From Actinomycetota bacterium (GTDB taxonomy: Bacteria > Actinomycetota > AC-67), in assembly GCA_036397035.1 (NCBI GenBank), contig DASWJS010000014.1, forward strand, positions 36,014 to 100,013: a stretch of 64,000 bases of DNA. Direction: 5' to 3'. How positions within the stretch are numbered: the stretch's first letter is position 1; each line of letters opens with the position of its first letter. The notes under the pieces are model-generated. The model made no database searches. It was not told where the DNA came from and saw only the letters and a program-made list of their open reading frames with translations. This document shows, in pieces, positions 10,261-27,173 of the stretch. The position numbers and the translations under genes were made by a program.

Positions 10261-10269
10261 GGGAGCATT

Positions 10270-10530: not shown

Positions 10531-10558
10531 GCGGCGATCGTATCTCGCCGCAGGGACG

Positions 10559-10993: not shown

Positions 10994-11309
10994 CCGATGT
11001 TAGCCGGGTTAACTCCTTCTTGAAAAGACCGGGTTAACACCCGTCTGAGCAGATAACACCTAGTCGACGCGGGTCGAGGAGTCAGCTTGCCATGATTGAC
11101 TTGCAAGAACCCTCGCGCGAAGCCCTTTGGACATTTGTCCAGAGCGAGCTATGCGCTCGCGCCCAGCGGTTCGAGCGGGCGGGCGGGGATCGCCGGGAGC
11201 GGGGACTCGGTGGGCCCCTCGAACGGCGCGCCAGCGACGTGAGAGGGAGGACCGCAGTGAGCGAACTCGGTGACGCGGTCACGCGTCGCCGAGTTCGGGA
11301 ACGGGTCCC

Positions 11310-11332
11310 CGCGGAGGCGAGCCACGCCCGCC
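11310..11332. repeat. 23-bp perfect direct repeat, copy A (CGCGGAGGCGAGCCACGCCCGCC)
   Basis: Identical 23-mer at 14241-14263. Lies ~45 nt 3' of the 408-aa gene in a 380-bp noncoding stretch. Confidence 0.7.
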
Positions 11333-11375
11333 TGCGGACCCTCAGAGGAGAGGCAACCCGGCAGGCTCGCGCAGG

Positions 11376-12602: not shown

Positions 12603-12676
12603 CGAGCCGTTACCCGGCGCGCTGTGTGCGGTTGAAGCGGACCGAGATAGACAACGAGCGCAACGGTGCGTTCAAG

Positions 12677-12910
12677 CTACCGCGCCTCGTCGAGTGGCCT
12701 GACGGCGATCACATCGCGTTCTTCGACTGGACGCACGTCATCGATCCTCAGAGTCAGCACGGCCTGCGTTCTTCCCGATCCCGTCACGAACTCGACCTCC
12801 AAGCCGTCGGGTTCGTAACGCTCGACCACAGTGCCAAGGTCACCACGACGGAGCCCGTGCTCCGGGACGTCTCGAGCAAGGACAACGGTCTGAAGCAGTT
12901 CATATCTCAT
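12677..12910 (-). CDS. DUF4926-family small protein
   Basis: 77 aa (MRYELLQTVVLARDVPEHGLRRGDLGTVVERYEPDGLEVEFV..) matching the DUF4926 pattern. 4-nt overlap with the upstream DUF6883 gene. Confidence 0.5.
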   Translation of the reverse strand: MRYELLQTVVLARDVPEHGLRRGDLGTVVERYEPDGLEVEFVTGSGRTQAVLTLRIDDVRPVEERDVIAVRPLDEAR

Positions 12911-13245
12911 GGCCTCGCTCCTGGGAACGCCGTCACGAACCTCGGGGCATCCTCACCCGTAAGGATAATCCAGACCGACACGACCTGAGCCTCCTTTCCG
13001 CCAGGCCCGCGCAACGGTCCGCTAACGGTGTATTTCCGGCCAAACGCCGTCTCTTCCATTGAAGCGATTCCCTCGACAGCGTGCATCCTGAGATCAGCGA
13101 GCAAGGTTCCCCACGCCTCGGGCGTATAGCCGAGAGCTGCGAAGAACTTCGCCTTGAACTGCCCAACTGGATGCGACGAAGACAGAAGGTAATCGCGTAC
13201 CTTGCGAGGCTCAACGACGGCCTCGTTGGCACCTTCGAACGACAT
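12907..13245 (-). CDS. DUF6883-family protein
   Basis: 112 aa with DYLLSSSHPVGQFKAKFFAALGYTPEAW, a DUF6883-like region. This family is commonly paired with DUF4926. Confidence 0.5.
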   Translation of the reverse strand: MSFEGANEAVVEPRKVRDYLLSSSHPVGQFKAKFFAALGYTPEAWGTLLADLRMHAVEGIASMEETAFGRKYTVSGPLRGPGGKEAQVVSVWIILTGEDAPRFVTAFPGARP

Positions 13246-13472
13246 CGCGCGACTCTACAGCGCCGCAGGGACACAACAGACCGACGGATCGGTTCACAGC
13301 ACGTGTCGACAGCGAGGACCAATCACGAGGTGGCTGTTTGGCCGCTTGCGCGCTTCGGTCGGTCGGCGTTCAACCGATCGTGCTCGTCACTACCCACTCC
13401 TTCTCTTCCAACATCTTTGGGACCTCCGTCAACGCGCGGCTGAGCGACGCTTCAATCCCCCCACGCTCAAAG

Positions 13473-13700
13473 CTAGCGAGCGTTTGAGGGCGGGTCACCG
13501 TCGTCCATGTTCTTGCGTACTGGGTTCCAGTAGAGGACGTTTAGCGTGGCGAGCGCGGCGAAGGCAAGCGCCTCCCACTGACGCGTGACGAAGAACCCGA
13601 TCACTCCGAACACCGCAAAGACCGAGCCGAGCACGACCTGCCACGTAGCGTGCCTTCCGACGCGCCGGCGGACCTTTTCGTCCCTCGGTTCCCTGAACAT
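13473..13700 (-). CDS. hypothetical small membrane protein (2 TM)
   Basis: 75 aa with a basic N-terminus and two hydrophobic helices. No recognisable family. Confidence 0.35.
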   Translation of the reverse strand: MFREPRDEKVRRRVGRHATWQVVLGSVFAVFGVIGFFVTRQWEALAFAALATLNVLYWNPVRKNMDDGDPPSNAR

Positions 13701-13806
13701 CAGCCGCTCGTTCCAATCCGCGGTCGCACGGCGTGCTCGCGTGAGCTATCCGTCACCGGAGAACATGCCCACGAGCGGTCGGAGCCCCTCGGGCTGCCTC
13801 ATCGAG

Positions 13807-13953
13807 CTATCGCGCAACGTGGCGCACCTCACCAAGCACTTGCCCGTTGGTCTCGCCGCGGAGCTTGAGGGGCATCAGGATCTGCGTGCCTGCATTTCCC
13901 GGTGCCCTGAAAGCCATCGGTGCGGTTGGGTGCTCGTCAAGCAGTACGCGCAC
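13807..13953 (-). pseudogene. DUF5615-like (Mut7-C/PIN-like) remnant, truncated
   Basis: GTG overlapping the DUF433 stop gives VRVLLDEHPTAP..., the start of the usual DUF5615 partner of DUF433. It stops after about 48 codons (full length is ~110 aa), and the downstream frames are broken. Confidence 0.3.
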
Positions 13954-14165
13954 GCGGAACTGCGCCCTCCAGGGCATCGAGAGCCTCGTTGACCTGCTCA
14001 CGAGTCACGGACGGAAACTGCTTCAGGAACTCCTCGACGCTGTAATCGTCTTCGAGATAGTCGATCAGGTTCCGAAGCGGCACCCGCGTGCCGACGAACA
14101 CCGGAGTCCCGCCGAGGATCTCCGGGTCAGAGTGCACGACCGAACTCAGATCACCCACGCCGTGA
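13937..14165 (-). CDS. DUF433-family protein (antitoxin-like)
   Basis: C-terminal ~75 aa of the track ORF (SDPEILGGTPVFVGTRVPLRNLIDYLEDDYSVEEFLKQFPSVTREQVNEALDAL) is a typical DUF433. Start codon is ambiguous (GTG or TTG around 14150-14190). Confidence 0.55.
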
Positions 14166-14240
14166 TCATACCGCCTCGAGTCGCCCTGCCTACCGCATTC
14201 GCCAGCGTCAGAGCGTATTCCCGCGAGGATCGTCGCAACA

Positions 14241-14271: not shown

Positions 14272-15126
14272 TCAGATGATGGGCGGACGGCCCGCGCGGG
14301 TCATGCGGGCGACGGTGCTCCAGCGGATGGGTTTGCGCTCGCCCGCCGGCTCGCGAAAGCCGGCGCCGAAGCCGGCGAGGAGCGCGCGCGCGTCGGCGAG
14401 GGAGCGGGCTCGGGCGAGCGTGAGGACCATCCAGACCGCCACGTAGATCGGCGCGAGGAGCCACGGCAGGCGGCGGCGGGCGAGGAAGACGCGGTTCCGA
14501 GCAGTCGTGCGATGGAACCAGGCGTGGCGCTCGGCCGGCTCGGACGGGTGCGCCACCGCGAGGTCGCCCGCGTAGCGAACGGCATAGCCCGCGTCGAGCG
14601 CTCGCCAGGCGAGGTCGGTGCCCTCGTGGCCGAAGTAGAACTCCTCGGGATATCCGCCGACCTCGGCGAACACCGAGGCCCGGATGGCGCACGCGCCTTC
14701 CAGGAACGTCGTCGCATCGCTCGACCGGCGCGGGTCCCCCGCGCGCAGTCGGGGAACGTGACGGCGCTGGCCCGGCCGACCGCTCGGGTCGTCGATGCGA
14801 AACGAGACGATGCCGAGGCGCGGCTCGGCATCGAACCGGGACAGCGCCCGCGCGACGAGGTCGCGATCGGGATAGGACGTGTCGTCGTCCAGGAAGAACA
14901 GGACGTCGGCGCGAACGGCCTCGACGGCTCGGTTGCGCGCCGCGGCCGGGCCGACGTTCTCCGGTAGCGCGAGCACCCGCACGCCCGCGCCTACCGCCGG
15001 CGGCTCGCACCCGTTGCAGACGAGCCAGACCTCGGGCGAGCCCTCTTGCGCGAGCGCCGAATCCAGCGCGCGCGCGACCTCGGCGGGCCGGGACCCAGCC
15101 GTCAGGACGATGCAGGCCGCGTTCAC
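14272..15126 (-). CDS. glycosyltransferase family 2
   Basis: 284 aa from GTG at 15126 (GTGA overlap with the upstream stop). GT-A motifs: CIVLTAGSRP..., FFLDDDTSY (DxD), GGYPEEFYFGHEGTDLAWR. Confidence 0.75.
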   Translation of the reverse strand: MNAACIVLTAGSRPAEVARALDSALAQEGSPEVWLVCNGCEPPAVGAGVRVLALPENVGPAAARNRAVEAVRADVLFFLDDDTSYPDRDLVARALSRFDAEPRLGIVSFRIDDPSGRPGQRRHVPRLRAGDPRRSSDATTFLEGACAIRASVFAEVGGYPEEFYFGHEGTDLAWRALDAGYAVRYAGDLAVAHPSEPAERHAWFHRTTARNRVFLARRRLPWLLAPIYVAVWMVLTLARARSLADARALLAGFGAGFREPAGERKPIRWSTVARMTRAGRPPII

Positions 15127-15896
15127 CGCAGGCGCTTCGAGGCGAGGATCATCACGAAGTGACCGCCCGCGATCAGCGCCGTCAGGAAGAAGTAGAAGGC
15201 GACGAGGGGCAGGGTCACGTCCACGTGCCACCACATCGCGTCGAACACGCGCAGCACGCCGACGATCAGGGAGGCTTCGATCGCGCCGGTCAGTCGATAG
15301 AGGGGGAGCATCCGCGCGAGCCGCCGCGCCGCGCCCAGCCCACCCGAAGGAACCGACACGGCCTCCTCGTCGGCCGCGACCGGCAGGCCCGCCTTCGCGC
15401 GCGCGACGTGCACGAGGTCGGTCTCGACCTTGCCGACGAAGTGGAACAACGCCGCGCCCATGCCCAGCCCGATCCACGACGGGCTCCACACGCGCGCCGC
15501 GTAGATGCCGAGCGCCGCGAAGAACGACCCCTCGACGAGGTAGTGGCCGAGCCGGTCGATGAAGATGCCCGTCGCGCCGGTCGTCTGACGCCAGCGCGCG
15601 ACTTCGCCGTCGGAGCAATCCAGCAGCAAGTAGAGCTGGATCAGGGCCATGCCCTCGATCGGCGCGGTGGGGCCTTGCAGCGCGAACAGCAGCGCGCCGC
15701 ACACGCCGACGACGGCCATCGCGAAGGTGATGACGTTCGCGCTGAGGCCCGTGCGCACGAGCAGCCACGTGACGTAGATGCTCACGCGCCGGCCGTAGAG
15801 GCGGCCGGCCCAGTGCTCGCCGGAGTAGCGCGCGATCAGCCCGGGGGGCTGGCAGACGGCGCGCAGCTCAGCGATCGAAGGATTCGAGGAAGGCAT
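15123..15896 (-). CDS. CDP-alcohol phosphatidyltransferase family protein
   Basis: 257-aa polytopic protein with the family motif D-x2-DG-x2-AR-x8-G-x3-G-x3-D-x3-D (DCSDGEVARWRQTTGATGIFIDRLGHYLVE). Confidence 0.8.
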   Translation of the reverse strand: MPSSNPSIAELRAVCQPPGLIARYSGEHWAGRLYGRRVSIYVTWLLVRTGLSANVITFAMAVVGVCGALLFALQGPTAPIEGMALIQLYLLLDCSDGEVARWRQTTGATGIFIDRLGHYLVEGSFFAALGIYAARVWSPSWIGLGMGAALFHFVGKVETDLVHVARAKAGLPVAADEEAVSVPSGGLGAARRLARMLPLYRLTGAIEASLIVGVLRVFDAMWWHVDVTLPLVAFYFFLTALIAGGHFVMILASKRLR

Positions 15897-16923
15897 CCAC
15901 TCGGCTCCGCACCTCGTCGTGGCCGAGGCCGAGGTGCTCCAGGATCGTGTAGCGGTCTGGCCGGGTCTCGGGCGCCTTGACCACCGCGGAGGTGAAGTCG
16001 TCGGCGCCTAGGCCGAGGTCGCCCGGCAGCCGCGGCACGCCGTAGCGGCGCAGGCACGCGTCGAGGTCCGCGATGCCGGGGTCCGCTCGCAGGAAGCTCG
16101 CGAAGAGCGCCCCGACGGCCACTTGCTCGCCGTGCAGCCCGGTCCCGGGGAACAGCGCGTCGATCGCGTGGGAGATCTCGTGGCACGCGCCGCTGCACGG
16201 CCGGCTGCTGCCGGCGATTCCCATCGACAGGCCGCTCAGGATCAGTGCCTCGGCGAGCGCGGTCAGGAACGTCTCGGAGTCGATCGCGTCGGTCCGGCGC
16301 ACGACCGCCGCCGAAGCCGAGCGCGCGAGCGACACCGCGAGCCCGTCGATCGGCTCGCGCCGCTCGCGCGCGGCAAGCTCCCAGTCGGCGACGGCCGACA
16401 GGTTGGACACCGCGTCGCCGATGCCCGATCGCGTGTGCCGCTCGGGGCTGCGCGTGACGTAGTCCAGGTCCACGACGACCGCGATCGGAAGCTGCACGCC
16501 GTAGGAGCCCTTGCGGTCGCCGGTGCGAAGGACGGCGACCGGCGAGGCGAGCCCGTCGTGCGTGAGCGTCGTGGCGACCGAGACGAACGGCAACCCGACG
16601 GCGCTCGCCGCGTACTTGCCGACGTCGAGCGTGCCGCCGCCGCCGATGCCGACGACCGCGTCGTAGAACGAGCCGCGGAGCTGCTCGGCGAGGCGATGCG
16701 CCGACTCCATGCTGCCGCCTTCGACGGTGATCAGCTCGGCGCTCGGCAGGCTGCCCGCGAGGTGCGCGGCGATCTGCTCGCCCATGCCTTCGCCGACCGC
16801 GATCGCGACGCTGCCGCCCGCGGAGATGCGCCCGTCGGCCAGCAGCCGCGCGAGCCCTTCCACCGCGCCGCGCCGGATGTCCACCGCGATCGGAGCCGGG
16901 ATCGTGCGCGCGAGCAGCGGCAT
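15868..16923 (-). CDS. egsA: glycerol-1-phosphate dehydrogenase [NAD(P)+]-like (G1PDH/EgsA/AraM family, DHQS-like fold)
   Basis: 351 aa. GIGGGGTLDVGKYAASAVGLPFVSVATTLTHDGLASPVAVL matches the G1PDH signature (GGG..DV.KYAA...PFISVPT.ASHDGIASP). Metal-ligand His residues are present near the C-terminus (CHEISHAID, GLHGEQV). Confidence 0.7.
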   Translation of the reverse strand: MPLLARTIPAPIAVDIRRGAVEGLARLLADGRISAGGSVAIAVGEGMGEQIAAHLAGSLPSAELITVEGGSMESAHRLAEQLRGSFYDAVVGIGGGGTLDVGKYAASAVGLPFVSVATTLTHDGLASPVAVLRTGDRKGSYGVQLPIAVVVDLDYVTRSPERHTRSGIGDAVSNLSAVADWELAARERREPIDGLAVSLARSASAAVVRRTDAIDSETFLTALAEALILSGLSMGIAGSSRPCSGACHEISHAIDALFPGTGLHGEQVAVGALFASFLRADPGIADLDACLRRYGVPRLPGDLGLGADDFTSAVVKAPETRPDRYTILEHLGLGHDEVRSRVDAFLESFDR

Positions 16924-17687
16924 CAGCGCGCCTCCCGCGCCGGGGCCGGCGCGGGCGCGATGCCCAGCGTGCGCGCGCGCTCCAAGTCGGCCGGCGTGTC
17001 TACCTCCACCCAGTCGAGCCCTCCCACCGACACGGTACGCACTTCTCCTCCCGCGTCTGCGTAGGCCTGGAACCCGTCCTCGTAGTACAGGGACGGGTCG
17101 GCCCGCCAGGTCCGCTCGAGCGCCTCCGCCAGGTCCGCAGCCGCGGACGGCTCGATCAAGGTGACGCCGATGTACTCGCCGTGCGCGCGGGCGGGCTCCA
17201 TCTCCTTCGTGATGCGCGCGAGCCGCCCGTCCTCCAGCACGACCTTCATCTCCTCCTCGGCCAGCACCTTGACGTCGTCGAGCGCGATCAGCACGCCGGG
17301 CCCGCGCGCGGCGAGCATCCGCTGCTCGACCGCGACCGGATGGACGGTGTCGCCGTTGACGACCATCGCGCCGCGCGCGAAGTGCTCGCGCGCGAGCCAG
17401 AGCGAGTAGGCGTTGTTCCAGTCGAGCGCGCGGTCGTTCGCGACGAGGCCGAGCCGTACGCCGTGCGCGGCCTCCAGGTCGCTCACGCGCCGCTCGATCG
17501 CCTCCGCCGCGTAGCCGACGACGACGAAGACCTCCTCGATCCCCGCGGCGCGAAGGTTCGACAGCGCGACGTCCAGGATCGTCCAGCCGCCACCGATCGG
17601 CGCGAGCGCCTTCGGGATGTCCGCGGTCAGCGGGCGCAGGCGCTTGCCCTCACCGGCCGCGAGCACGATCCCGGCCAGGTCGCTCAC
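16923..17687 (-). CDS. nucleotidyltransferase (NTP_transferase family; putative polyol-phosphate cytidylyltransferase)
   Basis: 254 aa from GTG at 17687 (GTGA overlap with the upstream stop). N-terminus GIVLAAGEGKRLRPLTADIPKAL is the sugar/polyol-phosphate nucleotidyltransferase G-x-G-x-R motif. Size and fold resemble IPCT/MobA-like enzymes. Confidence 0.7.
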   Translation of the reverse strand: MSDLAGIVLAAGEGKRLRPLTADIPKALAPIGGGWTILDVALSNLRAAGIEEVFVVVGYAAEAIERRVSDLEAAHGVRLGLVANDRALDWNNAYSLWLAREHFARGAMVVNGDTVHPVAVEQRMLAARGPGVLIALDDVKVLAEEEMKVVLEDGRLARITKEMEPARAHGEYIGVTLIEPSAAADLAEALERTWRADPSLYYEDGFQAYADAGGEVRTVSVGGLDWVEVDTPADLERARTLGIAPAPAPAREAR

Positions 17688-18517
17688 ACGCCCTCCGCCG
17701 GCCGGCTCTTCAGGATCCGCTTGACCAAACGCCGGGTCGCGCGAGAGGCGAGGAAGAGCTTCGCCACGATCGCGATCTCGAACGCCAGCAGCAGCGCCGC
17801 GGCGGCGAGCGTGACGACGGCCACCTGCCCGGTGGCGGGACCCAGGATGAACACGAACATCTGGAACTCGATGCCGCTGAACAGGTGCGAGCGGATGCGC
17901 CGGCGCCCCAGCGCGTTGCGAACCCGCGACAGCAACGGGAAGCGGCGGGCGACCGCGCGCTGTATGCGGTCCTCCTCGCCGCGTTCGGCCCCGATCCCGC
18001 CGGCTTTGAGGCCGGCCTCGCGTCGCGCGTCGCGCACCTGTTTGCGGAGCCGCGCCTGCAACGACTCGATCTTCAGCGCGTCCACGTACCGCAGCATGTC
18101 CAGGAAGATGACGAGCATCCCGAGGTACAGGTACCGCTCGTCGCCGGCGAGCCGGAACCGTCCGCCCATCAATGCGAGCGTGACCGCGAGCACGCGGATG
18201 CGATCGAAGACGTAGTCGAGCCACTCGCCGAAGTACGACCCCGTTCCCGCCAGGCGCGCGACCTTGCCGTCGACGCAATCCATCGTGAAGCTCGCGTGAT
18301 AGAGCAGCGCCCCCACGATCAGCGCGGTCGCCGAACCGCTCCAGAAGAACCACGCGGACGCGAGGCCCAAGGCGAGCGAGGCGGCTGAGATCTGGTTCGG
18401 CGTGAGCCTGGTGTAGTTCACCGCGACCAGGCTGAGGCGGACGGCGACCGGGTCCACCAGGATCACGGTCCACCACGAGTCGCGGGGCTTGATCGCACGC
18501 GTGCGCGCGTCGGCCAT
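17684..18517 (-). CDS. CDP-alcohol phosphatidyltransferase family protein (second copy)
   Basis: 277-aa membrane protein with DCVDGKVARLAGTGSYFGEWLDYVFDRIRVL (D-x2-DG-x2-AR...G...D-x3-D). Confidence 0.75.
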   Translation of the reverse strand: MADARTRAIKPRDSWWTVILVDPVAVRLSLVAVNYTRLTPNQISAASLALGLASAWFFWSGSATALIVGALLYHASFTMDCVDGKVARLAGTGSYFGEWLDYVFDRIRVLAVTLALMGGRFRLAGDERYLYLGMLVIFLDMLRYVDALKIESLQARLRKQVRDARREAGLKAGGIGAERGEEDRIQRAVARRFPLLSRVRNALGRRRIRSHLFSGIEFQMFVFILGPATGQVAVVTLAAAALLLAFEIAIVAKLFLASRATRRLVKRILKSRPAEGV

Positions 18518-18546
18518 CGTGTAGTGCGCGCGCGAGCGCGTCGTGC

Positions 18547-19359
18547 TCACTCCTCGTCCTCTGCCTCGTCCTGGAAGGCGGTGTAGAGCGGAAGGACCTC
18601 CTCGGTCGGACCGTCGGCTCGGACGACGCCGTTCTGCAGCCAGATCGTCCGCTCGCAGTAACGCGTCAGGTCGCTCTCGCGGTGCGACACCAGCACCAGC
18701 GTGCGTCCCTCCTTGGAGAGCTTGTCCTCCATCACTTTCACCGACTTGCGCTTGAAGCGCCGGTCGCCGACGGCGAACACTTCGTCGAGCAGCATCACGT
18801 CCGACTCCACCTGCGCCACGATGCTGAACCCGAGCCGCCCCTTCATGCCCGACGAGAAGTGCTTGAGCGGCATGTCCATGAACCCCTTCAAGCCGGAGAA
18901 GCGCACGATCTTGCGAAAGCGCGCGTCGATCTCCTTCTCGGTCAGGCCCATGATCATCCCCGACAGGTAGACGTTCTCGCGCGCGGTGAGATCGCCCGAG
19001 AAGCCGGCGCCGAGCTCGATCAGCGGCGCGACGCCGCCGTGTACGAGGACCTCGCCCTCGTCCGGGTAGAGCACGCCGGCGATCAGCTTCAGCAGCGTGC
19101 TCTTGCCGGACCCGTTCGAGCCGATCAGCCCGACCGACTCGCCCTTGCGGATCGTGAAGGTGACGTTGCGCAGGGCCCAGAACCGGTCGGCCTTCTGGAA
19201 CCCCCGGATGAAGTGGTCGCGGATGCGCGTCTTCCGGCGGCGGTTGACGTGGAACCAGATGCCGACGTCCCGGCATTCGATGATGGGCGGCGCGTCGGAC
19301 GGCGGCGCGTCGGGACGCCAGTCCTTCGTCACGGTTCCCGTCTGCTCGGCGTCGCTCAT
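18547..19359 (-). CDS. ABC transporter ATP-binding protein (TagH/Wzt-like exporter ATPase)
   Basis: 270 aa from MSDAEQT... with Walker A GSNGSGKST, ABC signature FSSGMKGRLGFS and Walker B VMLLDEVFAVGD. Overlaps the permease stop. Confidence 0.85.
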   Translation of the reverse strand: MSDAEQTGTVTKDWRPDAPPSDAPPIIECRDVGIWFHVNRRRKTRIRDHFIRGFQKADRFWALRNVTFTIRKGESVGLIGSNGSGKSTLLKLIAGVLYPDEGEVLVHGGVAPLIELGAGFSGDLTARENVYLSGMIMGLTEKEIDARFRKIVRFSGLKGFMDMPLKHFSSGMKGRLGFSIVAQVESDVMLLDEVFAVGDRRFKRKSVKVMEDKLSKEGRTLVLVSHRESDLTRYCERTIWLQNGVVRADGPTEEVLPLYTAFQDEAEDEE

Positions 19360-20264
19360 ATCTCTTTCAACACCCGCGGTTCGAGCCTGGTGAACAGCAG
19401 GTACCCGATCACCAGGATAAGCGCGCACCCGATCGCCGAATAGCCGACCGTCAGCCACGAGTCGAACTGACTCACCGTCGCGACGGCGCCGCCGCCGCGC
19501 GGGCGCATCGTCCATCCCGACCACGCGCTGCGGTGCAGCGTGAGGATTCCCGTCATCGGGTTGAGCCGGTAGAGCGTCTGCGCGAGCGAGGACGCGCGCT
19601 CGTCCACCAGGATCAGCGGGTAGAGCACCGGCGAGAGGTAGAACCACGCGCGAAGCACCGGACGCGAGACGCGCTCGAGATCGCGCAGCAACGTGTTCGC
19701 CGCGCTGAGCCCGAGCGACAGGCCGGTCAGCAGCATCAACTGCAGCACGATCGCCAGCGGCAGGTAGAACATGTACAGCGAGGGCCGCAGCCCGAAGGCG
19801 AATGCGACCGGCACCAGCACCGAGATCGTGATGAGGAACTCGATGCCCTTCGTGAGCACGAGCTGCATCGGGTAGATCTCGCGCGGGAGGTCGCCGATCT
19901 TGCTGATGAGCTTGGAGTTTCCGCGAAGCGTGCGCATCGAGCCGGTGAAGCTGGCGCTCATCCATTGCCAGGCGAGGATGCCCGACAGGATGTAGGGCGG
20001 GAACGGCTGCACGCGGCCGAGCCGTCCGATCAGGCCGAAGACCAGCCAGTACACGCCCGTCATCAGCAGCGGCTCCAGGACCGACCAGAAGTAGCCGAGC
20101 GTGGAGCCCTCGTACTTCACCGACAGGTCGGTTCGGATCATCCGTTGCAGGACGGCTCGGCGCTTGCGGATGCGCTGGATGCGGGTGCCGAGCGTCAGGG
20201 AGGTGGTCACGACGGCACATGATATCGGCGGTGTCGCCGAACCCGAACTTGCCCGTTCGGGCAC
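19356..20264 (-). CDS. ABC-2 type transporter permease (TagG/Wzm-like)
   Basis: 302 aa with 6 predicted TM helices and an N-terminal R/K-rich segment (RIQRIRKRRAVLQRMIRTDLSVKYEGSTLGYFW), typical of polysaccharide/teichoic-acid ABC-2 permeases. Confidence 0.8.
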   Translation of the reverse strand: MPERASSGSATPPISCAVVTTSLTLGTRIQRIRKRRAVLQRMIRTDLSVKYEGSTLGYFWSVLEPLLMTGVYWLVFGLIGRLGRVQPFPPYILSGILAWQWMSASFTGSMRTLRGNSKLISKIGDLPREIYPMQLVLTKGIEFLITISVLVPVAFAFGLRPSLYMFYLPLAIVLQLMLLTGLSLGLSAANTLLRDLERVSRPVLRAWFYLSPVLYPLILVDERASSLAQTLYRLNPMTGILTLHRSAWSGWTMRPRGGGAVATVSQFDSWLTVGYSAIGCALILVIGYLLFTRLEPRVLKEI

Positions 20265-20286
20265 GCCCTGCGCGCCGGGAGCGCGT

Positions 20287-21258
20287 TCATCGCGTCGCGC
20301 GGGCGCGCCCGAACAGGAATCCCGCGCCCCAACCGACGTGCATGACGGGCAGCACGACGGGCAGCAGGAACGCCGCCGGCGCGCGGCGTGCGAGCGCGAG
20401 GCCCGTCGCGCTCAGCAGGAGCACGCCCGCGTAGACGACCGGCAAGGCGAGCGCCGCGCCGCGAAGGGGCGTGAACGCCAGGCCGGCCGAGGCGACCAGG
20501 CCGAGCACGAGCGCGACCGGCGCGGCCTGGCGCGGCCGCAGCGCGCGCCAGCTCTTGCGGAACGTCCGTCGCTTCCACGCGCCCGACCCCCAGTACTGAC
20601 GCCAGAGCGCGCCGAGGGAGGCGCGCGGCCGGTAGGTCACGCGCAAGTCGGGGTGGAAGTAGACGCGGCCGCCGCTGGCCCGGATGCGGTAGTTCAGCTC
20701 CGAGTCCTGGTTGCGCAGCAGGCGCTCGTCGAAGTAACCGACGCGTTCGAGCGCCGCTCGCCGGAACGTCCCGAGGAAGACGGTGTCCACCTCGCCGGGC
20801 GGCCCGCCCGTGCGGAAGCGCGCGTCCCCGACGCCGATCTTGATGCTCATGCCGAGCGCGATCGCGCGCTGCATCGTCGTGGCGCCCTCCGCGGCCTGGA
20901 TGCCGCCCACGTTGTCGGCGCCCGTTTCCATCAGCAGCTCGACCGCGCGGCGGACGTAGCCCTCGGGGAAGCGGACGTGGCCGTCGCACCGCACGATCAC
21001 CTCGCCGGTCGAGCGGCGGATCGCGGCGTTCAGGCCCGAGGGCGTGTGACCGGACGGATTCTCGACGATCGCCACGCGCGGGTCCGCCGCCGCGATGCGC
21101 TCGAGCATCGCGCGCGAGCCGTCGGCGGACGCGCCCTCGGCTGCGATTACCTCGAACGGTCGCGGATAGTCCTGCGCGAGGATGGACCCGAGCGACTCCT
21201 CCAGGGTCGCCTCCTCGTTGCGGACCGGCATCACGATGGACAGCGTCGGCCAGTCCAT
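20287..21258 (-). CDS. glycosyltransferase family 2 with C-terminal TM anchor (polyprenyl-phosphate glycosyltransferase-like)
   Basis: 323 aa from MDWPTLSIVMPVRNEEATL... (GT-A N-terminus, DxD region, C-terminal hydrophobic helices). The N-terminal part of the track ORF is frame artefact. Confidence 0.8.
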   Translation of the reverse strand: MDWPTLSIVMPVRNEEATLEESLGSILAQDYPRPFEVIAAEGASADGSRAMLERIAAADPRVAIVENPSGHTPSGLNAAIRRSTGEVIVRCDGHVRFPEGYVRRAVELLMETGADNVGGIQAAEGATTMQRAIALGMSIKIGVGDARFRTGGPPGEVDTVFLGTFRRAALERVGYFDERLLRNQDSELNYRIRASGGRVYFHPDLRVTYRPRASLGALWRQYWGSGAWKRRTFRKSWRALRPRQAAPVALVLGLVASAGLAFTPLRGAALALPVVYAGVLLLSATGLALARRAPAAFLLPVVLPVMHVGWGAGFLFGRARATR

Positions 21259-22226
21259 CAACCGGTCCGCTCCCCGACGAATCCGGCGAGCGAGCGCAGC
21301 TTGTCGCGAGCAGGGTCCGGCGCAAGCCCGTCCAGCGCCTCCGTCGCGCGGGCCTGCCAGCGCTCGATCTCGATGCGCGCGCGCTCGACCGAGCCGTTCT
21401 CGCGCAGGATCGACAGCGCGCGATCGACCTCGCCCGCGTCGAGCGCGGCGCGCAACTCCCCGGCACCCGGGACCGAGCCCGCGAAGGTCTCCAGCACCGG
21501 AAGCGTGTAGACACCCTCGCGCAGGTCCGTTCCCGGCACCTTGCCGGTGTCGTCCACCGTGCCCGCGACGTCCAGCACGTCGTCGGCAAGCTGGAAGGCG
21601 ACGCCCACCGCCTCGCCGTAGGCGGTAAGGCGTTCCACGGTCTGGTCGTCCGCGCCGGCGACCCACGCGCCGAGGTGGCACGAGCTGGCGAGCAGCGACG
21701 CGGTCTTGCGCTTGACGACGTCCAGGTACGTCTCGATGCTCGGCGTCGCCGATCCGGCCCCGGCCGTCTCGATGATCTCGCCCTCGCACAGGTCGCCGAT
21801 CGTGTTCGCGAGCCGGATGCAGACGTAGGGTCCCAGCTCGGCCGCGAGGGCCGAAGCCCGCGCGAGCAGGAAGTCCCCGGTCAGCACGGCGACGTGGTTG
21901 TCGTAGCGCGCGTTCACCGTTTCCACGCCGCGGCGCACCGTCGTCTCGTCGATGACGTCGTCGTGGTAGAGCGTGGCCAGGTGGGTCAGCTCGATCGCGG
22001 CGGCGCAGCGCACGAGGTCTCCGTGGTCGCCGTCGCCGAACCGTCCCGCGAGCATGGTCAGGATCGGGCGGAGCCGCTTGCCCCCCGCGTCGATGAGGTG
22101 CACCGACGCCTGCGAGACGAGCGGATGGTCCGAGGCGACGGTCGACCGCATCAGAGCGTCGACGTCGTCCAACGACGCCCGCAGGCCCTCGTCCACGATC
22201 GACGGATCGAGCAACGACATCGGCAC
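21258..22226 (-). CDS. polyprenyl diphosphate synthase (trans-isoprenyl diphosphate synthase family)
   Basis: 322 aa with first and second Asp-rich motifs (LYHDDVIDET and FQLADDVLDV). Starts 5 nt after the nuoN stop. Confidence 0.85.
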   Translation of the reverse strand: MPMSLLDPSIVDEGLRASLDDVDALMRSTVASDHPLVSQASVHLIDAGGKRLRPILTMLAGRFGDGDHGDLVRCAAAIELTHLATLYHDDVIDETTVRRGVETVNARYDNHVAVLTGDFLLARASALAAELGPYVCIRLANTIGDLCEGEIIETAGAGSATPSIETYLDVVKRKTASLLASSCHLGAWVAGADDQTVERLTAYGEAVGVAFQLADDVLDVAGTVDDTGKVPGTDLREGVYTLPVLETFAGSVPGAGELRAALDAGEVDRALSILRENGSVERARIEIERWQARATEALDGLAPDPARDKLRSLAGFVGERTG

Positions 22227-22230: not shown

Positions 22231-23693
22231 CTACCCCGTGAAGACGGCCGCCGTGCGCGCGAGGTCCATCAGCGCCTGCGGGTAGACCCCGAGCGCGAGT
22301 GTCGCCAGACCGGTCACGGCCAGCGCGACGCCGGCGGGCATCCCGACCGTCACCGGCTCCATCGAGGGCTCGGGCTCCTGCATCCACATCGCCACGATCA
22401 GGCGCAAGTAGAAGAACGCGGCGATGACGCTCGCGGCGACGCCGGCGAGGACGAGCCAGGTCTCCCCCGCCTCCACCGCGGCCTTGAACACGAAGAACTT
22501 GGCCATGAACCCGGCCGTCGGCGGCAGCCCGGCCATCGAGACAAGGAACAGCGTCATCGCGCCGGCGACGACGGGCGAGCCGCGCCCGAGCCCCGCCCAC
22601 GCGCCGACGTCGAGCCGCTCGCTCCCGCGCGCGAACGTCGCGGCGACGAGCGCGAAGGCGCCGATCGTCATCAGCGCGTAGACGAGGAGATAGAACAGCG
22701 AGCCGGCGAGCCCCTGTCGGTCCGCGGCCACGACGCCGATCAGCACGAAGCCCGCGTGGGCGATCGAGGAGTAGGCGAGCAGCCGCTTCACGTCCGTCTG
22801 CACGATCGCGACGACCGACCCGAGCAGCATCGTCACGATCGCGATCAGCCACAGGGCCGGCCGCCAGTCGAATTGCAGCGAGCCGAACGAGACGAGGAAC
22901 ACGCGCAGCAGCGCCGCGAACGCGGCCGCCTTGGTCGCCGCCGCCATGAACCCGGTCACCGTCGTCGGCGCTCCCTGGTAGACATCCGGCGTCCACATGT
23001 GGAACGGCACCGCGCCGACCTTGAACGCGAAGCCGACCGCGACCAGGGCCACGGCCGGCCAGAGCAGGTCCAGGTCGGCCGTCCCGCCGGCGACGGCGTC
23101 GGCGATCGCGCTGATGCTCGTCTCGCCGGTCGCCCCGTAGGCGAGCGCGATGCCGTAGAGCAGGATCGCGCTGGAGAACGCGCCGAGCAGGAAGTACTTC
23201 ATCGAGGCTTCCTGCGCGCCGCCGTCGGCTCGCGCCAGCCCGACCAGCACGTAGAGCGACAGCGAGAGCACCTCGAGCGCGATGAAGAGCAGGATCAGGT
23301 TCGCGGCCGAGGCCAGCAGCACCATGCCGGCGGTCGCGAGCAGCAGCAGCGGATAGAACTCGAAGCGGTGAATGCGCCGGGCGCTCAGGTAGTCGAAGGA
23401 CGCCAGGACCGTCAGGCCGGCCGCGAGCAGCAGCACGAGGTTGGTGAACAGCGCCACGCCGTCCACCGCCACCATCCCCTGCATGCCGACGATCTCGCGG
23501 TCGGCGCGCGCGAGGTCGAACGTGAGGAACCCGGCGCCGCCGAGCGCCGCCAGCGTCAGGATCGCGAAGCGCTCGCGCCGGATGCGTCGCGCGAACGCTC
23601 CCCACAGCAGGGTCAGCGCCGCCGCGCCCGCGAGCACGAGCACCGGACCGATGCTGCGCCAGACGATCTCCGGGGTGGCCTGGATGGGCACGC

Positions 23694-23697
<4 letters not shown>
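22231..23697 (-). CDS. nuoN: NADH-quinone oxidoreductase subunit N
   Basis: 488 aa from MSVPIQATPE... (FKVGAVPFHMWTPDVYQGAPT). ATG overlaps the nuoM stop (ATGA). The upstream part of the 926-aa track ORF is frame artefact. Confidence 0.9.

Positions 23698-27169
<3,472 letters not shown>

Positions 27170-27173
<4 letters not shown>

What the first reader, a model, noticed from the sequence alone, without database searches (positions are those of the whole stretch)
14272..22226. Bacterial G1PDH (archaeal-type glycerol-1-phosphate dehydrogenase family) in an operon with a cytidylyltransferase, two CDP-alcohol phosphatidyltransferases, two GT2s, an ABC-2 exporter and a polyprenyl synthase, transcriptionally coupled to nuoA-N
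Nine genes are packed with ATGA/GTGA start/stop overlaps, and the first begins 5 nt after the nuoN stop. The composition suggests a pathway that makes glycerol-1-phosphate (EgsA/AraM-type signature GGG.LDV.KYAA...PFVSVATTLTHDGLASP), activates it with CTP (NTP_transferase with G-x-G-x-R motif, IPCT-like size), and transfers the polyol-phosphate with CDP-alcohol phosphotransferase-family enzymes. Two copies both carry the D-x2-DG-x2-AR...G-x3-D-x3-D motif. Two GT2 enzymes could then glycosylate a polyprenyl-phosphate-linked intermediate (one GT2 has a GtrB-like C-terminal membrane anchor; a polyprenyl diphosphate synthase is adjacent). A TagGH/Wzm-Wzt-type ABC-2 transporter would export the product. 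Classical wall teichoic acid uses sn-glycerol-3-phosphate and TagF-type transferases. Archaeal ether lipids use G1P but need GGGPS, DGGGPS and CarS, none of which are here. So this combination does not match a textbook pathway. It may specify a G1P-containing phosphoglycan, phosphoglycolipid or compatible-solute-derived envelope polymer.
Basis: partly seen in the sequence, partly recalled or inferred. Interest (0 to 1): 0.7.

Follow-up and report, generated by a model that had tools for sequence, protein, structure and literature searches.

The report
Actinobacterial glycerol-1-phosphate envelope-polymer gene cluster
Eight tightly packed genes appear to make the "archaeal" mirror-image glycerol phosphate, activate it with CTP and attach it to an exported cell-envelope glycoconjugate; the cluster is widespread in Actinomycetota, has no published function that I could find, and its position next to the respiratory nuo genes is a local accident.

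Summary
The nine co-directional, overlapping genes are real. Eight of them form a cluster that recurs across Actinomycetota: GT2, ABC-2 permease, ABC ATPase, CDP-alcohol phosphotransferase (CPT1), nucleotidyltransferase (NTP), G1PDH-like dehydrogenase, a second phosphotransferase (CPT2) and GT2.

In 81 related loci, NTP directly precedes the dehydrogenase in 75, and a CDP-alcohol phosphotransferase directly follows it in 66. A 29%-GC metagenomic organism encodes NTP and the dehydrogenase as one fused protein, followed by a CPT2-type gene.

The dehydrogenase groups with archaeal G1PDH, not with glycerol dehydrogenase or DHQS. Both phosphotransferases are closest to Af2299, which uses CDP-glycerol as donor. 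Neighbours in other genomes include LCP ligases, glycerophosphodiesterases, TagF-like enzymes and TagGH-like exporters.

Best reading: DHAP → sn-glycerol-1-P → CDP-glycerol → glycerophosphate transfer onto a glycoconjugate that an ABC transporter exports. This is inferred, not shown.

- CPT2 lacks the family's fourth Asp. It has an invariant His instead.
- The polyprenyl synthase is a trans-type, menaquinone-like enzyme that goes with nuo.
- The nuo linkage occurs only in this lineage.
- The cluster is common, not rare.

I found no published functional study. It is a candidate for the unexplained LtaS-independent teichoic acid synthesis of actinomycetes.

The parts
20287..21258 (-). GT2a: family-2 glycosyltransferase, 323 aa, with 2-3 predicted C-terminal TM helices (residues 245-315)
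   Evidence: Pfam Glycos_transf_2 1.6e-23. The best PDB sequence hit is 6yv7, deposited as 'Glycosyl transferase, family 2' (1.6e-12); from memory, a membrane mannosyltransferase of Pyrobaculum calidifontis. TM prediction. Homologues lie within 10 kb of the G1PDH gene in 12 of 51 non-Micromonosporaceae loci. In Nocardiopsis L089 it occupies the same relative position.
19356..20264 (-). ABC-2 type permease (TagG/Wzm-like). The start is uncertain: 20264, or 20210 as in the public gene call.
   Evidence: Pfam ABC2_membrane 9.4e-11. NCBIfam galactan-export Wzm 43.5 bits, below its cutoff. Near the G1PDH gene in 32 of 51 non-Micromonosporaceae loci.
18547..19359 (-). ABC ATPase (TagH/Wzt-like), 270 aa, with no C-terminal carbohydrate-binding domain
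   Evidence: Pfam ABC_tran 8.9e-22. NCBIfam teichoic-acid export ATPase models 194 and 176 bits, and Wzt 166 bits, all below their equivalog cutoffs. ATGA overlap with the permease.
17684..18550 (-). CPT1: CDP-alcohol phosphotransferase with the canonical signature DCVDGKVAR-x8-GEWLDYVFD. This is the short form, 288 aa.
   Evidence: Pfam CDP-OH_P_transf 1.6e-11. Best PDB hit Af2299, 4o6m, 1.7e-9. Motif. In most other lineages this position holds a protein of about 600 aa followed by DUF5941. In Nocardiopsaceae it holds a degenerate remnant. Short-form homologues occur in Nonomuraea, Streptomyces and Thermoactinomycetaceae. In S. atratus one sits next to a GT2-GT2-TagF-like protein of 1517 aa.
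16923..17687 (-). NTP: nucleotidyltransferase, 254 aa. Inferred to be a CTP:sn-glycerol-1-phosphate cytidylyltransferase.
   Evidence: Pfam NTP_transferase 4.9e-14. Best PDB hits: LicC CTP:phosphocholine cytidylyltransferase (1.8e-14) and A. fulgidus IPCT. It matches the N-terminal half of the bifunctional IPCT/DIPPS model (67.7 bits). It directly precedes the G1PDH gene in 75 of 81 loci. It aligns end to end (30% identity, 4e-36) with the N-terminal domain of the natural NTP-G1PDH fusion P0413.
15868..16923 (-). G1PDH-like NAD(P)-dependent dehydrogenase (Fe-ADH_2), 351 aa. Inferred reaction: DHAP to sn-glycerol-1-phosphate.
   Evidence: NCBIfam NF002022 (G1PDH) 246 bits, E 5e-73 (cutoff 413), against GldA 62 bits and DHQS 32 bits. 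PDB: 3ce9 8e-45, M. jannaschii G1PDH 4e-43, P. calidifontis G1PDH 3e-36, B. subtilis AraM 2e-22, GldA about 1e-13. AF2 model pLDDT 92; Foldseek TM 0.81-0.86 to 4rgq. The motifs GGGG, HDGLASP, GIGDAVSN, SSRPCSGACHEISHAID and LHGEQ are shared with M. jannaschii G1PDH. H248, H252 and H264 are invariant and D170 is at least 90% conserved in 41 homologues.
15123..15896 (-). CPT2: a variant CDP-alcohol phosphotransferase, 257 aa, with signature DCSDGEVAR-x8-GIFIDRLGH. The fourth Asp of the family signature is replaced by His118.
   Evidence: Pfam CDP-OH_P_transf 7.5e-7. His at this position in 39 of 39 orthologues in the loci and 40 of 40 aligned homologues. AF2 model pLDDT 89; the best Foldseek hits are Af2299 with CDP or CDP-glycerol bound, then IPCT-DIPPS, then PIP synthases. 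It directly follows the G1PDH gene with a conserved 29-nt overlap. More than 2000 homologues of uniform length, about 255-275 aa.
14272..15126 (-). GT2b: family-2 glycosyltransferase, 284 aa, with one predicted C-terminal TM helix. Last gene of the cluster.
   Evidence: Pfam Glycos_transf_2 2e-13. No PDB sequence hit. GTGA overlap with CPT2. It follows CPT2 in 24 of 51 non-Micromonosporaceae loci.
21258..22226 (-). Trans-type long-chain polyprenyl diphosphate synthase (IspB/HepT/GrcC1-like). It is physically joined to the cluster, but most likely belongs to nuo and menaquinone rather than to the pathway.
   Evidence: Pfam polyprenyl_synt 2.4e-59. Best NCBIfam models: mycobacterial nonaprenyl-PP synthase 277 bits and HepT 245 bits, both below cutoff. 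The residues before the DDVID motif are small (A, T), as in long-chain enzymes (read from the sequence; the rule is general knowledge). No homologue lies within 10 kb of the G1PDH gene in 82 of 83 other loci. A MenJ-like geranylgeranyl reductase lies upstream of nuo operon 1.

Best explanation
Genes 14272-21258 form a self-contained module for a glycerophosphate-containing envelope glycoconjugate. It resembles teichoic acid synthesis but uses different enzymes.

Proposed steps:
1. The G1PDH-like enzyme reduces DHAP to sn-glycerol-1-phosphate. This rests on family membership and conserved metal ligands; the activity is not shown.
2. The LicC/IPCT-like nucleotidyltransferase condenses that product with CTP to give CDP-glycerol in the sn-1 configuration. 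This rests on gene fusion, gene adjacency and the need of CDP-alcohol phosphotransferases for a CDP-alcohol donor.
3. CPT2 is the invariant partner of the first two genes. It is an Af2299-like membrane phosphotransferase that uses His instead of Asp as its presumed base. I propose that it transfers glycerophosphate from CDP-glycerol to the first membrane-bound acceptor. The acceptor is unknown; a polyprenyl phosphate or a glycolipid is possible.
4. GT2b, which overlaps CPT2, and the membrane-embedded GT2a add sugars. CPT1, which is canonical but varies between lineages, adds one or more further glycerophosphates. These roles rest on domain families only.
5. The TagGH/Wzm-Wzt-like ABC-2 transporter moves the finished lipid-linked product across the membrane. 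Ligases encoded elsewhere then attach it to the wall or a lipid; LCP and Wzy_C-type genes lie next to the cluster in other genomes.

The polyprenyl synthase and the two flanking nuo operons are neighbours, not components.
For: Family placement of the dehydrogenase.

Coupling of dehydrogenase, NTP and CDP-AP:
- NTP directly precedes G1PDH in 75 of 81 loci, and a CDP-AP directly follows it in 66 of 81.
- The loci span Nitriliruptoria, Thermoleophilia, Acidimicrobiia and many orders of Actinomycetes.
- In Micromonosporaceae the triad NTP-G1PDH-CDP-AP stands alone.
- P0413 is a natural NTP_transferase::G1PDH fusion in a 29%-GC organism. It is followed by a CPT2-type gene ('LDCSDGEVAR') inside a glycan cluster with GT4, GT2, a Wzx-like flippase and a PMT_2 protein.

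Donor type:
- CPT1 and CPT2 are closest by sequence, and CPT2 also by predicted fold, to Af2299 and then to IPCT-DIPPS. These two CDP-APs are the ones shown to take the soluble donors CDP-glycerol and CDP-inositol (PMC4634129).
- NTP and the CPTs match the two halves of the bifunctional IPCT/DIPPS model.
- NTP is closest to cytidylyltransferases for small phospho-alcohols, LicC and IPCT.

Glycerophosphate and wall-polymer context in other genomes:
- GDPD in 11 loci, LCP ligase in 10, and TagF-like CDP-glycerol glycerophosphotransferase in 4. In three of those four the TagF-like gene lies divergently next to NTP-G1PDH; in L010 it lies beside a second NTP paralogue.
- Also Bac_transf, Wzy_C, GT4 and UDP-Glc dehydrogenase genes.
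- The ABC-2 pair is present in 32 of 51 non-Micromonosporaceae loci.
- Nocardiopsis L089 has the same eight functions in the same order as the window.

CPT2 is probably active. The CDP-binding and metal-binding residues D93, D96, G97, A100, R101, G110, D114 and T57 of the P(D/N)xxT motif are invariant. In Nocardiopsaceae it is the only CDP-AP with an intact motif left in the cluster.
Against: - No step has biochemical support, either here or in any paper I could find.
- The dehydrogenase scores below NCBI's equivalog cutoff for G1PDH (246 against 413 bits). G1PDH paralogues with other substrates exist, such as the haloarchaeal glycolaldehyde reductase model that appears.
- The NTP transferase scores about equally on sugar-1-phosphate nucleotidyltransferase models (archaeal GlmU, AglF and RmlA). 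It could therefore feed the GT2 enzymes instead.
- D4 is regarded as the catalytic base, and a D4N change kills M. tuberculosis PIP synthase (PMC4634129). CPT2, with His here and Gly in L090, could be inactive or could do different chemistry.
- No priming enzyme, LCP ligase, GDPD or TagF-like gene is present in this 64-kb window.
- The Micromonospora triad has no exporter, which fits a small lipid or solute product equally well.
Confidence: 0.5

Rival explanations
1. Membrane phospholipid pathway. CDP-glycerol made from G1P is transferred by the CDP-APs to diacylglycerol or another lipid. That would be a Kennedy-type route to phosphatidylglycerol, whose head group is sn-glycerol-1-phosphate, or to a glycerophospho-glycolipid. 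The GT2s would make the glycolipid and the ABC transporter would flip it.
For: - The CDP-AP family is above all a phospholipid head-group family (weak matches to PIP, AIP, PgsA and ClsA models).
- The Micromonosporaceae triad NTP-G1PDH-CDP-AP has no exporter.
- Both CPTs are integral membrane proteins.
Against: - The CPTs resemble the soluble-donor enzymes Af2299 and DIPPS more than PgsA or PIPS.
- CDP-APs with lipid acceptors usually carry 3-4 extra C-terminal TM helices (PMC4634129). These proteins are only 257 and 288 aa long.
- The transporter is of the TagGH/Wzt glycopolymer type.
- LCP, TagF-like, Wzy_C and GDPD genes as neighbours point to a polymer.
Confidence: 0.17
2. The dehydrogenase and the nucleotidyltransferase handle a substrate other than G1P, for example another small polyol phosphate or keto-phosphate. 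The cluster would then install a different phospho-alcohol on a glycan.
For: - The dehydrogenase is below the equivalog cutoff (246 against 413 bits).
- Its closest solved structure, 3ce9, is an uncharacterised structural-genomics protein.
- The NTP transferase family is promiscuous in annotation.
- IspD-like (CDP-ribitol or MEP type) cytidylyltransferases co-occur with the cluster in Nocardiopsaceae and Streptosporangiales.
Against: - The window protein scores higher against archaeal EgsA (151 bits) than against B. subtilis AraM (83 bits). Both are G1PDHs by their PDB titles.
- The G1PDH-specific motifs around the metal site are retained.
- GDPD and TagF-like neighbours indicate glycerophosphate chemistry.
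Confidence: 0.15
3. Compatible-solute synthesis, for example diglycerol phosphate or a glycerophospho-inositol-type solute. This would be analogous to IPCT/DIPPS and the glycerol phosphodiester pathways of Archaeoglobus.
For: - NTP and the CPTs match the two halves of IPCT/DIPPS.
- The closest structures are A. fulgidus Af2299 and IPCT-DIPPS.
Against: - The module is always embedded among glycosyltransferases and glycopolymer exporters, and often among LCP ligases.
- It is present in thousands of mesophilic soil actinomycetes.
- No phosphatase gene for the final step is conserved in the cluster.
Confidence: 0.05
4. A functional unit with complex I. The operon would be a respiratory or menaquinone-related accessory pathway, for example a modification of menaquinone or of a complex-I lipid, which would explain why it is fused to nuoA-N and the polyprenyl synthase.
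For: - The spacer after nuoN is 4 nt and no terminator was found.
- The cluster is sandwiched between two nuo operons both here and in L084.
Against: - Neither nuoN nor the polyprenyl synthase lies within 10 kb of the G1PDH gene in 82 of 83 other loci.
- In those loci the neighbours are glycan-assembly genes.
Confidence: 0.03

Closest known systems
IPCT/DIPPS (CTP:inositol-1-phosphate cytidylyltransferase plus CDP-inositol:inositol-1-phosphate transferase; di-myo-inositol phosphate synthesis in hyperthermophiles)
   Same: A small phospho-alcohol is activated by an NTP_transferase-fold cytidylyltransferase and then transferred by a 6-TM class-I CDP-alcohol phosphotransferase that takes a soluble CDP-alcohol donor. 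The window's NTP and CPT genes match the two halves of the bifunctional model and of structure 4mnd.
   Different: - The partner enzyme is a G1PDH, not an inositol-1-phosphate synthase.
- The scores are far below the family cutoff (68, 40 and 33 bits against 580).
- There are two CDP-APs, one without D4.
- The module sits among glycosyltransferases and a glycopolymer ABC exporter, so the product is unlikely to be a free solute.
Af2299 of Archaeoglobus fulgidus (a CDP-alcohol phosphotransferase crystallised with CDP-glycerol)
   Same: It is the closest solved relative of both CPT1 and CPT2 by sequence, and of CPT2 by predicted fold. Its donor pocket accommodates the glycerol of CDP-glycerol (PMC4634129).
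   Different: - Af2299 has an N-terminal cytidylyltransferase-like domain and the canonical D4.
- CPT1 and CPT2 lack that domain, and CPT2 has His at D4.
- Identity is only about 18-25%.
- The literature I read does not state the physiological acceptor of Af2299.
Wall teichoic acid pathway of Firmicutes (TagD/TarD, TagB/TagF, TagGH, LCP)
   Same: Poly- or oligo-(glycerophosphate) chemistry starting from CDP-glycerol on the cytoplasmic face, export by a TagGH-type ABC-2 transporter, and, in other genomes, LCP ligases, GDPD and even TagF-like genes beside the module.
   Different: - Glycerol phosphate would come from a G1PDH (sn-1), not from G3P.
- The cytidylyltransferase has the NTP_transferase fold, not the TagD (CTP_transf_like) fold.
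- The transferases in the cluster are CDP-AP membrane enzymes, not TagF-type ones.
- No TagO, TagA, TagB, TagD or TagF gene is in the window cluster.
Archaeal EgsA and the Bacillus subtilis AraM-PcrB route (G1P for ether lipids)
   Same: The same dehydrogenase family, and therefore presumably the same reaction, DHAP to sn-G1P. Actinobacterial G1PDH homologues have been noted in evolutionary studies (PMC5059525, PMC6431249).
   Different: - No GGGPS/PcrB, DGGGPS or CarS gene is in the cluster.
- The conserved partners are a cytidylyltransferase and CDP-APs.
- G1P is therefore predicted to be a head-group or polymer unit, not a lipid backbone.
LtaS/GacH-type glycerophosphate transferases (extracellular transfer of sn-Gro-1-P from phosphatidylglycerol to LTA or rhamnopolysaccharide)
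   Same: They would yield the same stereochemical unit, sn-glycerol-1-phosphate, on an envelope polymer (general knowledge; abstracts of PMC7086022 and bioRxiv 10.1101/337519, listed).
   Different: - The enzymology and topology are completely different: a cytoplasmic nucleotide-activated donor instead of an extracellular lipid donor.
- Actinobacteria are reported to lack clear LtaS orthologues (PMC3196553).

Membership tests
sn-glycerol-1-phosphate dehydrogenase (EgsA/AraM; Pfam Fe-ADH_2) | The best-scoring family model is G1PDH, clearly above glycerol dehydrogenase and DHQS | tested here: met
   NF002022 246 bits, against GldA 62 and AroB 32 bits. PDB: 4rgq 151 bits, against GldA 55 bits or less. 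Foldseek: 4rgq 1e-22, against GldA 7e-19 or weaker.
sn-glycerol-1-phosphate dehydrogenase (EgsA/AraM; Pfam Fe-ADH_2) | Reaches NCBI's curated equivalog cutoff | tested here: not met
   246 bits against a cutoff of 413. The actinobacterial clade is a distinct subfamily.
sn-glycerol-1-phosphate dehydrogenase (EgsA/AraM; Pfam Fe-ADH_2) | Asp/His/His metal ligands and a glycine-rich NAD(P)H loop. The identity of the ligands is recalled by analogy with GldA and G1PDH structures. | tested here: met
   GGGG(93-96), D170 in GIGDAVSN, H248/H252 in CHEISHAID and H264 in LHGEQ align with the same motifs of M. jannaschii G1PDH. They are invariant or at least 90% conserved in 41 homologues.
sn-glycerol-1-phosphate dehydrogenase (EgsA/AraM; Pfam Fe-ADH_2) | Stereospecific reduction of DHAP to sn-G1P | not testable with these tools
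   Needs an enzyme assay with chiral analysis.
Class-I CDP-alcohol phosphotransferases (CDP-AP, PF01066) | Signature D1xxD2GxxAR...GxxxD3xxxD4, described as 'eight absolutely conserved residues' (PMC4634129) | tested here: met
   For CPT1: DCVDGKVAR-x8-GEWLDYVFD. Canonical in 20 of 22 related CPT1 hits.
Class-I CDP-alcohol phosphotransferases (CDP-AP, PF01066) | The same signature, in CPT2 | tested here: not met
   For CPT2: D1, D2, G, A, R, G and D3 are present, but D4 is His118. His occurs in 39 of 39 orthologues and 40 of 40 aligned homologues, and Gly in the L090 homologue. CPT2 is therefore a divergent subfamily, not a canonical member.
Class-I CDP-alcohol phosphotransferases (CDP-AP, PF01066) | The all-helical transmembrane fold of solved CDP-APs | tested here: met
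   CPT2 AF2 model, pLDDT 89. The top 19 Foldseek PDB hits are all CDP-APs; Af2299 TMq 0.57-0.60. CPT1 was not modelled.
CTP:phospho-alcohol cytidylyltransferases of the NTP_transferase fold (LicC, IPCT) | NTP_transferase domain with a GxGxR loop, and closest relatives that are CTP-dependent enzymes for small phospho-alcohols | tested here: inconclusive
   The domain and motif are present. The best PDB hits are LicC and IPCT. NCBIfam scores for sugar-1-phosphate NTases are similar. Nucleotide and substrate specificity cannot be read from the sequence.
TagGH / Wzm-Wzt ABC-2 glycopolymer exporters | An ABC2_membrane permease with an adjacent ABC ATPase whose best matches are TagH and Wzt | tested here: met
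   All equivalog cutoffs are missed, so this is family-level membership only.
Classical wall teichoic acid pathway | TagD-type cytidylyltransferase, TagB/TagF glycerophosphotransferase, TagO/TagA linkage-unit enzymes and an LCP ligase | tested here: not met
   None of the nine gene products has these domains. tblastn with TagF-like, LCP, GDPD and Bac_transf proteins from related loci finds nothing in the 64-kb window. TagD, TagO and TagA were not searched separately outside the cluster.
Archaeal-type ether lipid pathway | GGGPS/PcrB, DGGGPS (UbiA) and CarS together with G1PDH | tested here: not met
   These are absent from the cluster and from the conserved neighbourhood in 83 loci. The rest of the genome was not available.
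IPCT/DIPPS | Reaches the family score, and is associated with inositol-1-phosphate synthase | tested here: not met
   68, 40 and 33 bits against a cutoff of 580. The conserved partner is G1PDH, not MIPS.

The most novel reading that the evidence does not exclude
The cluster is the missing LtaS-independent route to actinobacterial (lipo)teichoic-acid-type polymers. sn-Glycerol-1-phosphate would be made by a G1PDH and activated as a previously undescribed CDP-sn-1-glycerol. It would then be installed or polymerised on the cytoplasmic face by CDP-alcohol phosphotransferases. CPT2 would be a new His-type subfamily that primes a lipid carrier. The product would then be exported by a TagGH-like transporter. 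That would give bacteria a third, enzymatically unrelated way to build glycerophosphate polymers, beside TagF and LtaS, and would give bacterial G1PDH a physiological role.
Probability: 0.2. Interest if true: 0.8.

Novelty: new variant of a known kind. Interest (0 to 1): 0.6.

Why it matters
- Lipoteichoic acids with poly(glycerophosphate) chains have been isolated from actinomycetes, including Streptomyces, Thermobifida and Agromyces. Yet these genomes lack clear orthologues of LtaS, so the pathway is an acknowledged open question (PMC3196553).
- Separately, G1PDH homologues in Actinobacteria have been used in arguments about the origin of the archaeal/bacterial 'lipid divide' without any known function (PMC5059525, PMC6431249). 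A 2026 paper still names AraM as the only known bacterial source of G1P (PMC13400652).
- A conserved triad of G1PDH, cytidylyltransferase and CDP-AP inside glycopolymer export clusters gives both questions a concrete hypothesis that can be tested genetically.
- It predicts a new nucleotide-activated donor, CDP-glycerol of sn-1 configuration.
- It predicts a CDP-AP subfamily that works without the 'absolutely conserved' catalytic Asp.
- If instead the enzymes make ordinary products, the finding is simply a very common, poorly annotated cell-wall cluster.

Tried and rejected
1. Literature. The terms included G1PDH with cytidylyltransferase and CDP-alcohol, DUF5941, 'CDP-1-glycerol' and 'glycerol-1-phosphate cytidylyltransferase' (no papers), and AF2299. 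None found a functional study of this cluster. The only mention is a one-paragraph synteny note for Streptomyces (PMC13118837). The Carbone 2015 G1PDH structure paper, the Sciara 2014 Af2299 paper and the Rahman 2009 T. fusca LTA paper are not held. The substrate-contact residues of G1PDH could therefore not be checked against the primary source.

2. nuo coupling as a conserved feature: rejected.

3. The polyprenyl synthase as supplier of carrier lipid: rejected on enzyme class and lack of conservation.

4. GT2a as specifically GtrB-like: not supported. Its best matches are MftF, PgaC and the membrane GT2 6yv7. ArnC reaches only 27 bits.

5. More distant G1PDH homologues (39-42% identity) in WOR-3 and one other bacterial contig do not carry the triad. 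The triad is therefore specific to the actinobacterial clade and the fusion lineage, and is not a property of all bacterial G1PDHs.

6. Rfam scan of the window: no hits.

7. A first naive ORF caller failed on this high-GC DNA. It was replaced by a GC3-based caller that reproduces the public gene calls.

Full report

The window has about 70% GC. Searches give nine minus-strand ORFs between 14272 and 22226. A GC3-based gene caller that I wrote and the public gene calls on the same metagenomic contig give the same models.

The junctions are 1-nt (TGATG), 4-nt (ATGA or GTGA) or 29-nt overlaps, with one gap of 22-76 nt before the permease. The polyprenyl synthase starts 4 nt after the nuoN stop codon. 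No terminator-like site lies between the genes.

One detail in the finding is wrong. Only CPT1 (17684-18550) has the full CDP-alcohol phosphotransferase signature. CPT2 (15123-15896) reads DCSDGEVAR-x8-GIFIDRLGH, with His where the fourth Asp should be.

**2. What organism, and how common is the cluster?**

The dehydrogenase is 100% identical to a protein of an 'Actinomycetota bacterium' MAG. More than 5000 homologues were scored. The best 120 are 61-75% identical and come from several classes of the phylum.

A scan of one genome per species returned at least 573 confirmed loci. I kept 80 of them. They come from Nitriliruptoria, Thermoleophilia (Solirubrobacteraceae, Gaiellaceae), Acidimicrobiia and many orders of Actinomycetes, including Micromonospora, Nocardiopsis, Kineosporia, Frankiaceae and MAGs labelled Mycobacteriales.

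**3. Which genes belong together?**

I used tblastn with the window proteins, and de novo gene calling followed by clustering on 83 independent loci. The results:

- The nucleotidyltransferase directly precedes the dehydrogenase in 75 of 81 loci.
- A CDP-alcohol phosphotransferase directly follows the dehydrogenase in 66 of 81.
- Outside Micromonosporaceae the usual order is [GT4] - long CPT1 (about 600 aa) - DUF5941 - NTP - G1PDH - CPT2 - (GT2b) - ABC-2 permease - ATPase.
- The ABC-2 permease is present in 32 of 51 such loci. Many of these contigs are truncated, so the counts are lower bounds.
- Nocardiopsis (L089) has the same eight functions in the same order as the window.
- In Micromonosporaceae only the triad NTP - G1PDH - CDP-AP is kept.
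- nuoN and the polyprenyl synthase never occur within 10 kb of the dehydrogenase, except in one 70%-identical relative (L084).

In that relative and in the window, the cluster lies between a 14-subunit nuo operon and a second, 11-subunit nuo operon without nuoE, F and G. The nuo linkage is therefore a peculiarity of this lineage.

The polyprenyl synthase is a trans-type enzyme. Its best models are the mycobacterial nonaprenyl-PP synthase and HepT. The residues before its DDVID motif are small, and a MenJ-like reductase lies upstream of nuo operon 1. This fits menaquinone, the acceptor of NDH-1. Carrier lipids for glycan assembly are made by cis-prenyltransferases (general knowledge).

**4. The dehydrogenase**

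That test comes out in favour of G1PDH:

- NCBIfam: G1PDH model 246 bits (E 5e-73), GldA 62 bits, AroB 32 bits.
- PDB by sequence: 3ce9 (8e-45), M. jannaschii G1PDH (4e-43), P. calidifontis G1PDH (3e-36), B. subtilis AraM (2e-22), glycerol dehydrogenases about 1e-13.
- A confident AF2 model (pLDDT 92) gives the same order by Foldseek.
- The motifs around the metal site are shared with M. jannaschii G1PDH and are conserved in 41 homologues.

Two caveats apply. The score is below NCBI's equivalog cutoff of 413 bits. The closest structure, 3ce9, is an uncharacterised protein.

Actinobacterial G1PDH homologues are known from evolutionary studies (PMC5059525, PMC6431249), but no function has been assigned to them.

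**5. Is the dehydrogenase coupled to the nucleotidyltransferase and the CDP-AP?**

Beyond adjacency, an exhaustive search of 1.84 billion representative proteins found P0413. This 579-aa protein has an N-terminal NTP_transferase domain and a C-terminal G1PDH-like domain.

- The window's NTP protein aligns end to end with the N-terminal domain (30% identity, 4e-36).
- The window's dehydrogenase is 40% identical to the C-terminal domain.
- On its 29%-GC contig, the fusion gene is followed at once by a 238-aa CDP-AP with the CPT2-type 'LDCSDGEVAR' motif. This protein is closer to CPT2 than to CPT1.
- The surrounding genes are GT4, GT2, a Wzx-like flippase, a PMT_2 protein and UDP-Glc dehydrogenase.

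This is independent Rosetta-stone evidence that the dehydrogenase product is what gets nucleotide-activated, and that a CPT2-type enzyme uses it, in a glycan context.

More distant G1PDH homologues in WOR-3 and one other bacterium lack the triad.

**6. What do the other enzymes resemble?**

- NTP is closest to LicC (CTP:phosphocholine cytidylyltransferase) and to A. fulgidus IPCT.
- Both CPTs are closest to Af2299. The CPT2 model (pLDDT 89) matches Af2299 with CDP or CDP-glycerol bound, then IPCT-DIPPS, then PIP synthases.
- According to PMC4634129, Af2299 and DIPPS are the CDP-APs that take the soluble donors CDP-glycerol and CDP-inositol. The same paper says the family signature has eight absolutely conserved residues, that D4 is the likely catalytic base, and that a D4N change abolishes activity.
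- CPT2 keeps every other signature residue and T57 of the P(D/N)xxT nucleotide motif, but has an invariant His at D4 (39 of 39 and 40 of 40). The homologue next to the fusion gene has Gly there.
- In Nocardiopsaceae the CPT1 position holds a remnant without DxxDG, so CPT2 is the only intact CDP-AP left in that cluster.

I conclude that CPT2 is the core transferase of the system and a divergent catalytic subfamily, and that CPT1 is an accessory, lineage-variable transferase.

- GT2a resembles a membrane-embedded family-2 glycosyltransferase (6yv7).
- GT2b has no solved relative by sequence.
- The ATPase is closest to TagH and Wzt models.

**7. What do the neighbourhoods say about the product?**

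Families that recur beside the module in other genomes:

| Family | Loci |
|---|---|
| Glycerophosphodiester phosphodiesterase (GDPD) | 11 |
| LytR-CpsA-Psr (LCP) ligase | 10 |
| TagF-like CDP-glycerol glycerophosphotransferase | 4 |
| Wzy_C / O-antigen-ligase-like | 6 |

- In three of the four TagF-like loci the gene lies divergently next to NTP-G1PDH. In L010 it lies beside a second NTP paralogue.
- IspD-like cytidylyltransferase, Bac_transf, GT4, UDP-Glc dehydrogenase and sulfotransferase genes also recur.
- A Streptomyces atratus homologue of the short CPT1 overlaps a 1517-aa GT2-GT2-TagF-like protein, with an LCP gene nearby.

These are the hallmarks of wall-glycopolymer or teichoic-acid loci, and they point specifically to glycerophosphodiester chemistry. 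None of these accessory genes is present in the 64-kb window itself.

**8. Mechanism proposed**

1. DHAP is reduced to sn-G1P by the G1PDH-like enzyme.
2. G1P is converted to CDP-glycerol of sn-1 configuration by NTP.
3. CPT2 transfers glycerophosphate to a membrane acceptor.
4. GT2b and GT2a add sugars, and CPT1 adds further glycerophosphate.
5. The TagGH-like transporter exports the product.
6. Enzymes encoded elsewhere ligate it to the wall or a lipid.

Steps 1 and 2 rest on family membership, the gene fusion and synteny. Step 3 rests on homology to Af2299 and on gene order. Steps 4 to 6 rest on domain families and neighbourhoods only. Nothing is shown biochemically. My confidence in the whole scheme is about 0.5.

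The rivals are a phospholipid head-group route (0.17), a different phospho-alcohol substrate (0.15), a compatible solute (0.05) and a respiratory accessory function (0.03).

**9. Comparison with known systems, and novelty**

The system works like a hybrid of IPCT/DIPPS (activation and transfer of a small phospho-alcohol) and wall-teichoic-acid assembly (cytoplasmic synthesis and TagGH export). It is not a member of either:

- It misses the IPCT/DIPPS score and its MIPS partner.
- It has no TagD, TagB, TagF or TagO.
- It is not an ether-lipid pathway, because there is no GGGPS, DGGGPS or CarS.

I found no paper that assigns it a function. Searches for a G1P cytidylyltransferase or for CDP-1-glycerol returned nothing. 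The only mention is a synteny note (PMC13118837).

Actinomycete LTA synthesis without LtaS is an acknowledged open problem (PMC3196553). The cluster is a plausible candidate, but I could not test its co-occurrence with LTA-positive species.

I rate it a new variant of a known kind, with interest 0.6. The instance in this window is one of thousands, and its distinctive nuo context is incidental. The system as a whole is conserved, uncharacterised and experimentally tractable.

Noticed in passing
window 5-9344 (-): A second nuo-like operon with 11 genes, nuoA, B, C, D, H, I, J, K, L, M and N, and no nuoE, F or G (Pfam). It lies downstream of the cluster, while the full 14-gene nuoA-N operon lies upstream at 22231-36743. 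In the 70%-identical relative L084 the second operon starts 124 nt after GT2b.
   Followed up: partly
window 9467-14200: A patch of small toxin-antitoxin-like genes (HicA/HicB, DUF4160/DUF2442, DUF433) and a 385-aa ORF with no Pfam match (11376-12533). It is inserted between the cluster and the second nuo operon and is absent at this position in relative L084.
   Followed up: no
window 41839-48228: A sulfation gene set: two Sulfotransfer_3 genes (one multi-domain), a bifunctional ATP-sulfurylase/APS-kinase and a CitMHS/sulfate-symporter-type transporter. Sulfotransferases 30-36% identical to these lie within 10 kb of the G1PDH gene in 9 other Actinomycetota loci, for example L002, L011, L017 and L029. 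The product of the cluster may therefore be sulfated.
   Followed up: partly
window 40381-41694 (-) and 38187-40283 (-): A geranylgeranyl-reductase-like flavoprotein (MenJ-like) and a 698-aa Beta_propel protein lie upstream of nuoA of the first nuo operon. The reductase fits a menaquinone context for the polyprenyl synthase at 21258-22226.
   Followed up: no
L036, L040, L062, L064, L089 (Nocardiopsaceae), gene just upstream of DUF5941: The position of CPT1 holds a protein of 234-318 aa that is homologous to the C-terminal part of the long CPT1 but has lost the DxxDG...D motif. It appears to be a pseudoenzyme retained in the cluster.
   Followed up: partly
L090:10001-12553 (29% GC metagenome contig): A natural fusion of NTP_transferase and a G1PDH-like dehydrogenase (P0413, 579 aa) is followed by a CPT2-type CDP-AP whose D4 position is Gly. 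It sits inside a glycan cluster that also has radical-SAM genes. The organism was not identified.
   Followed up: partly
L001, L085 and 20+ other loci, genes upstream of NTP: The long CPT1 form has an N-terminal region of about 350 aa with no Pfam match. It is always followed by a DUF5941 protein of about 205 aa. Neither has a known function, and neither is present in the window.
   Followed up: no
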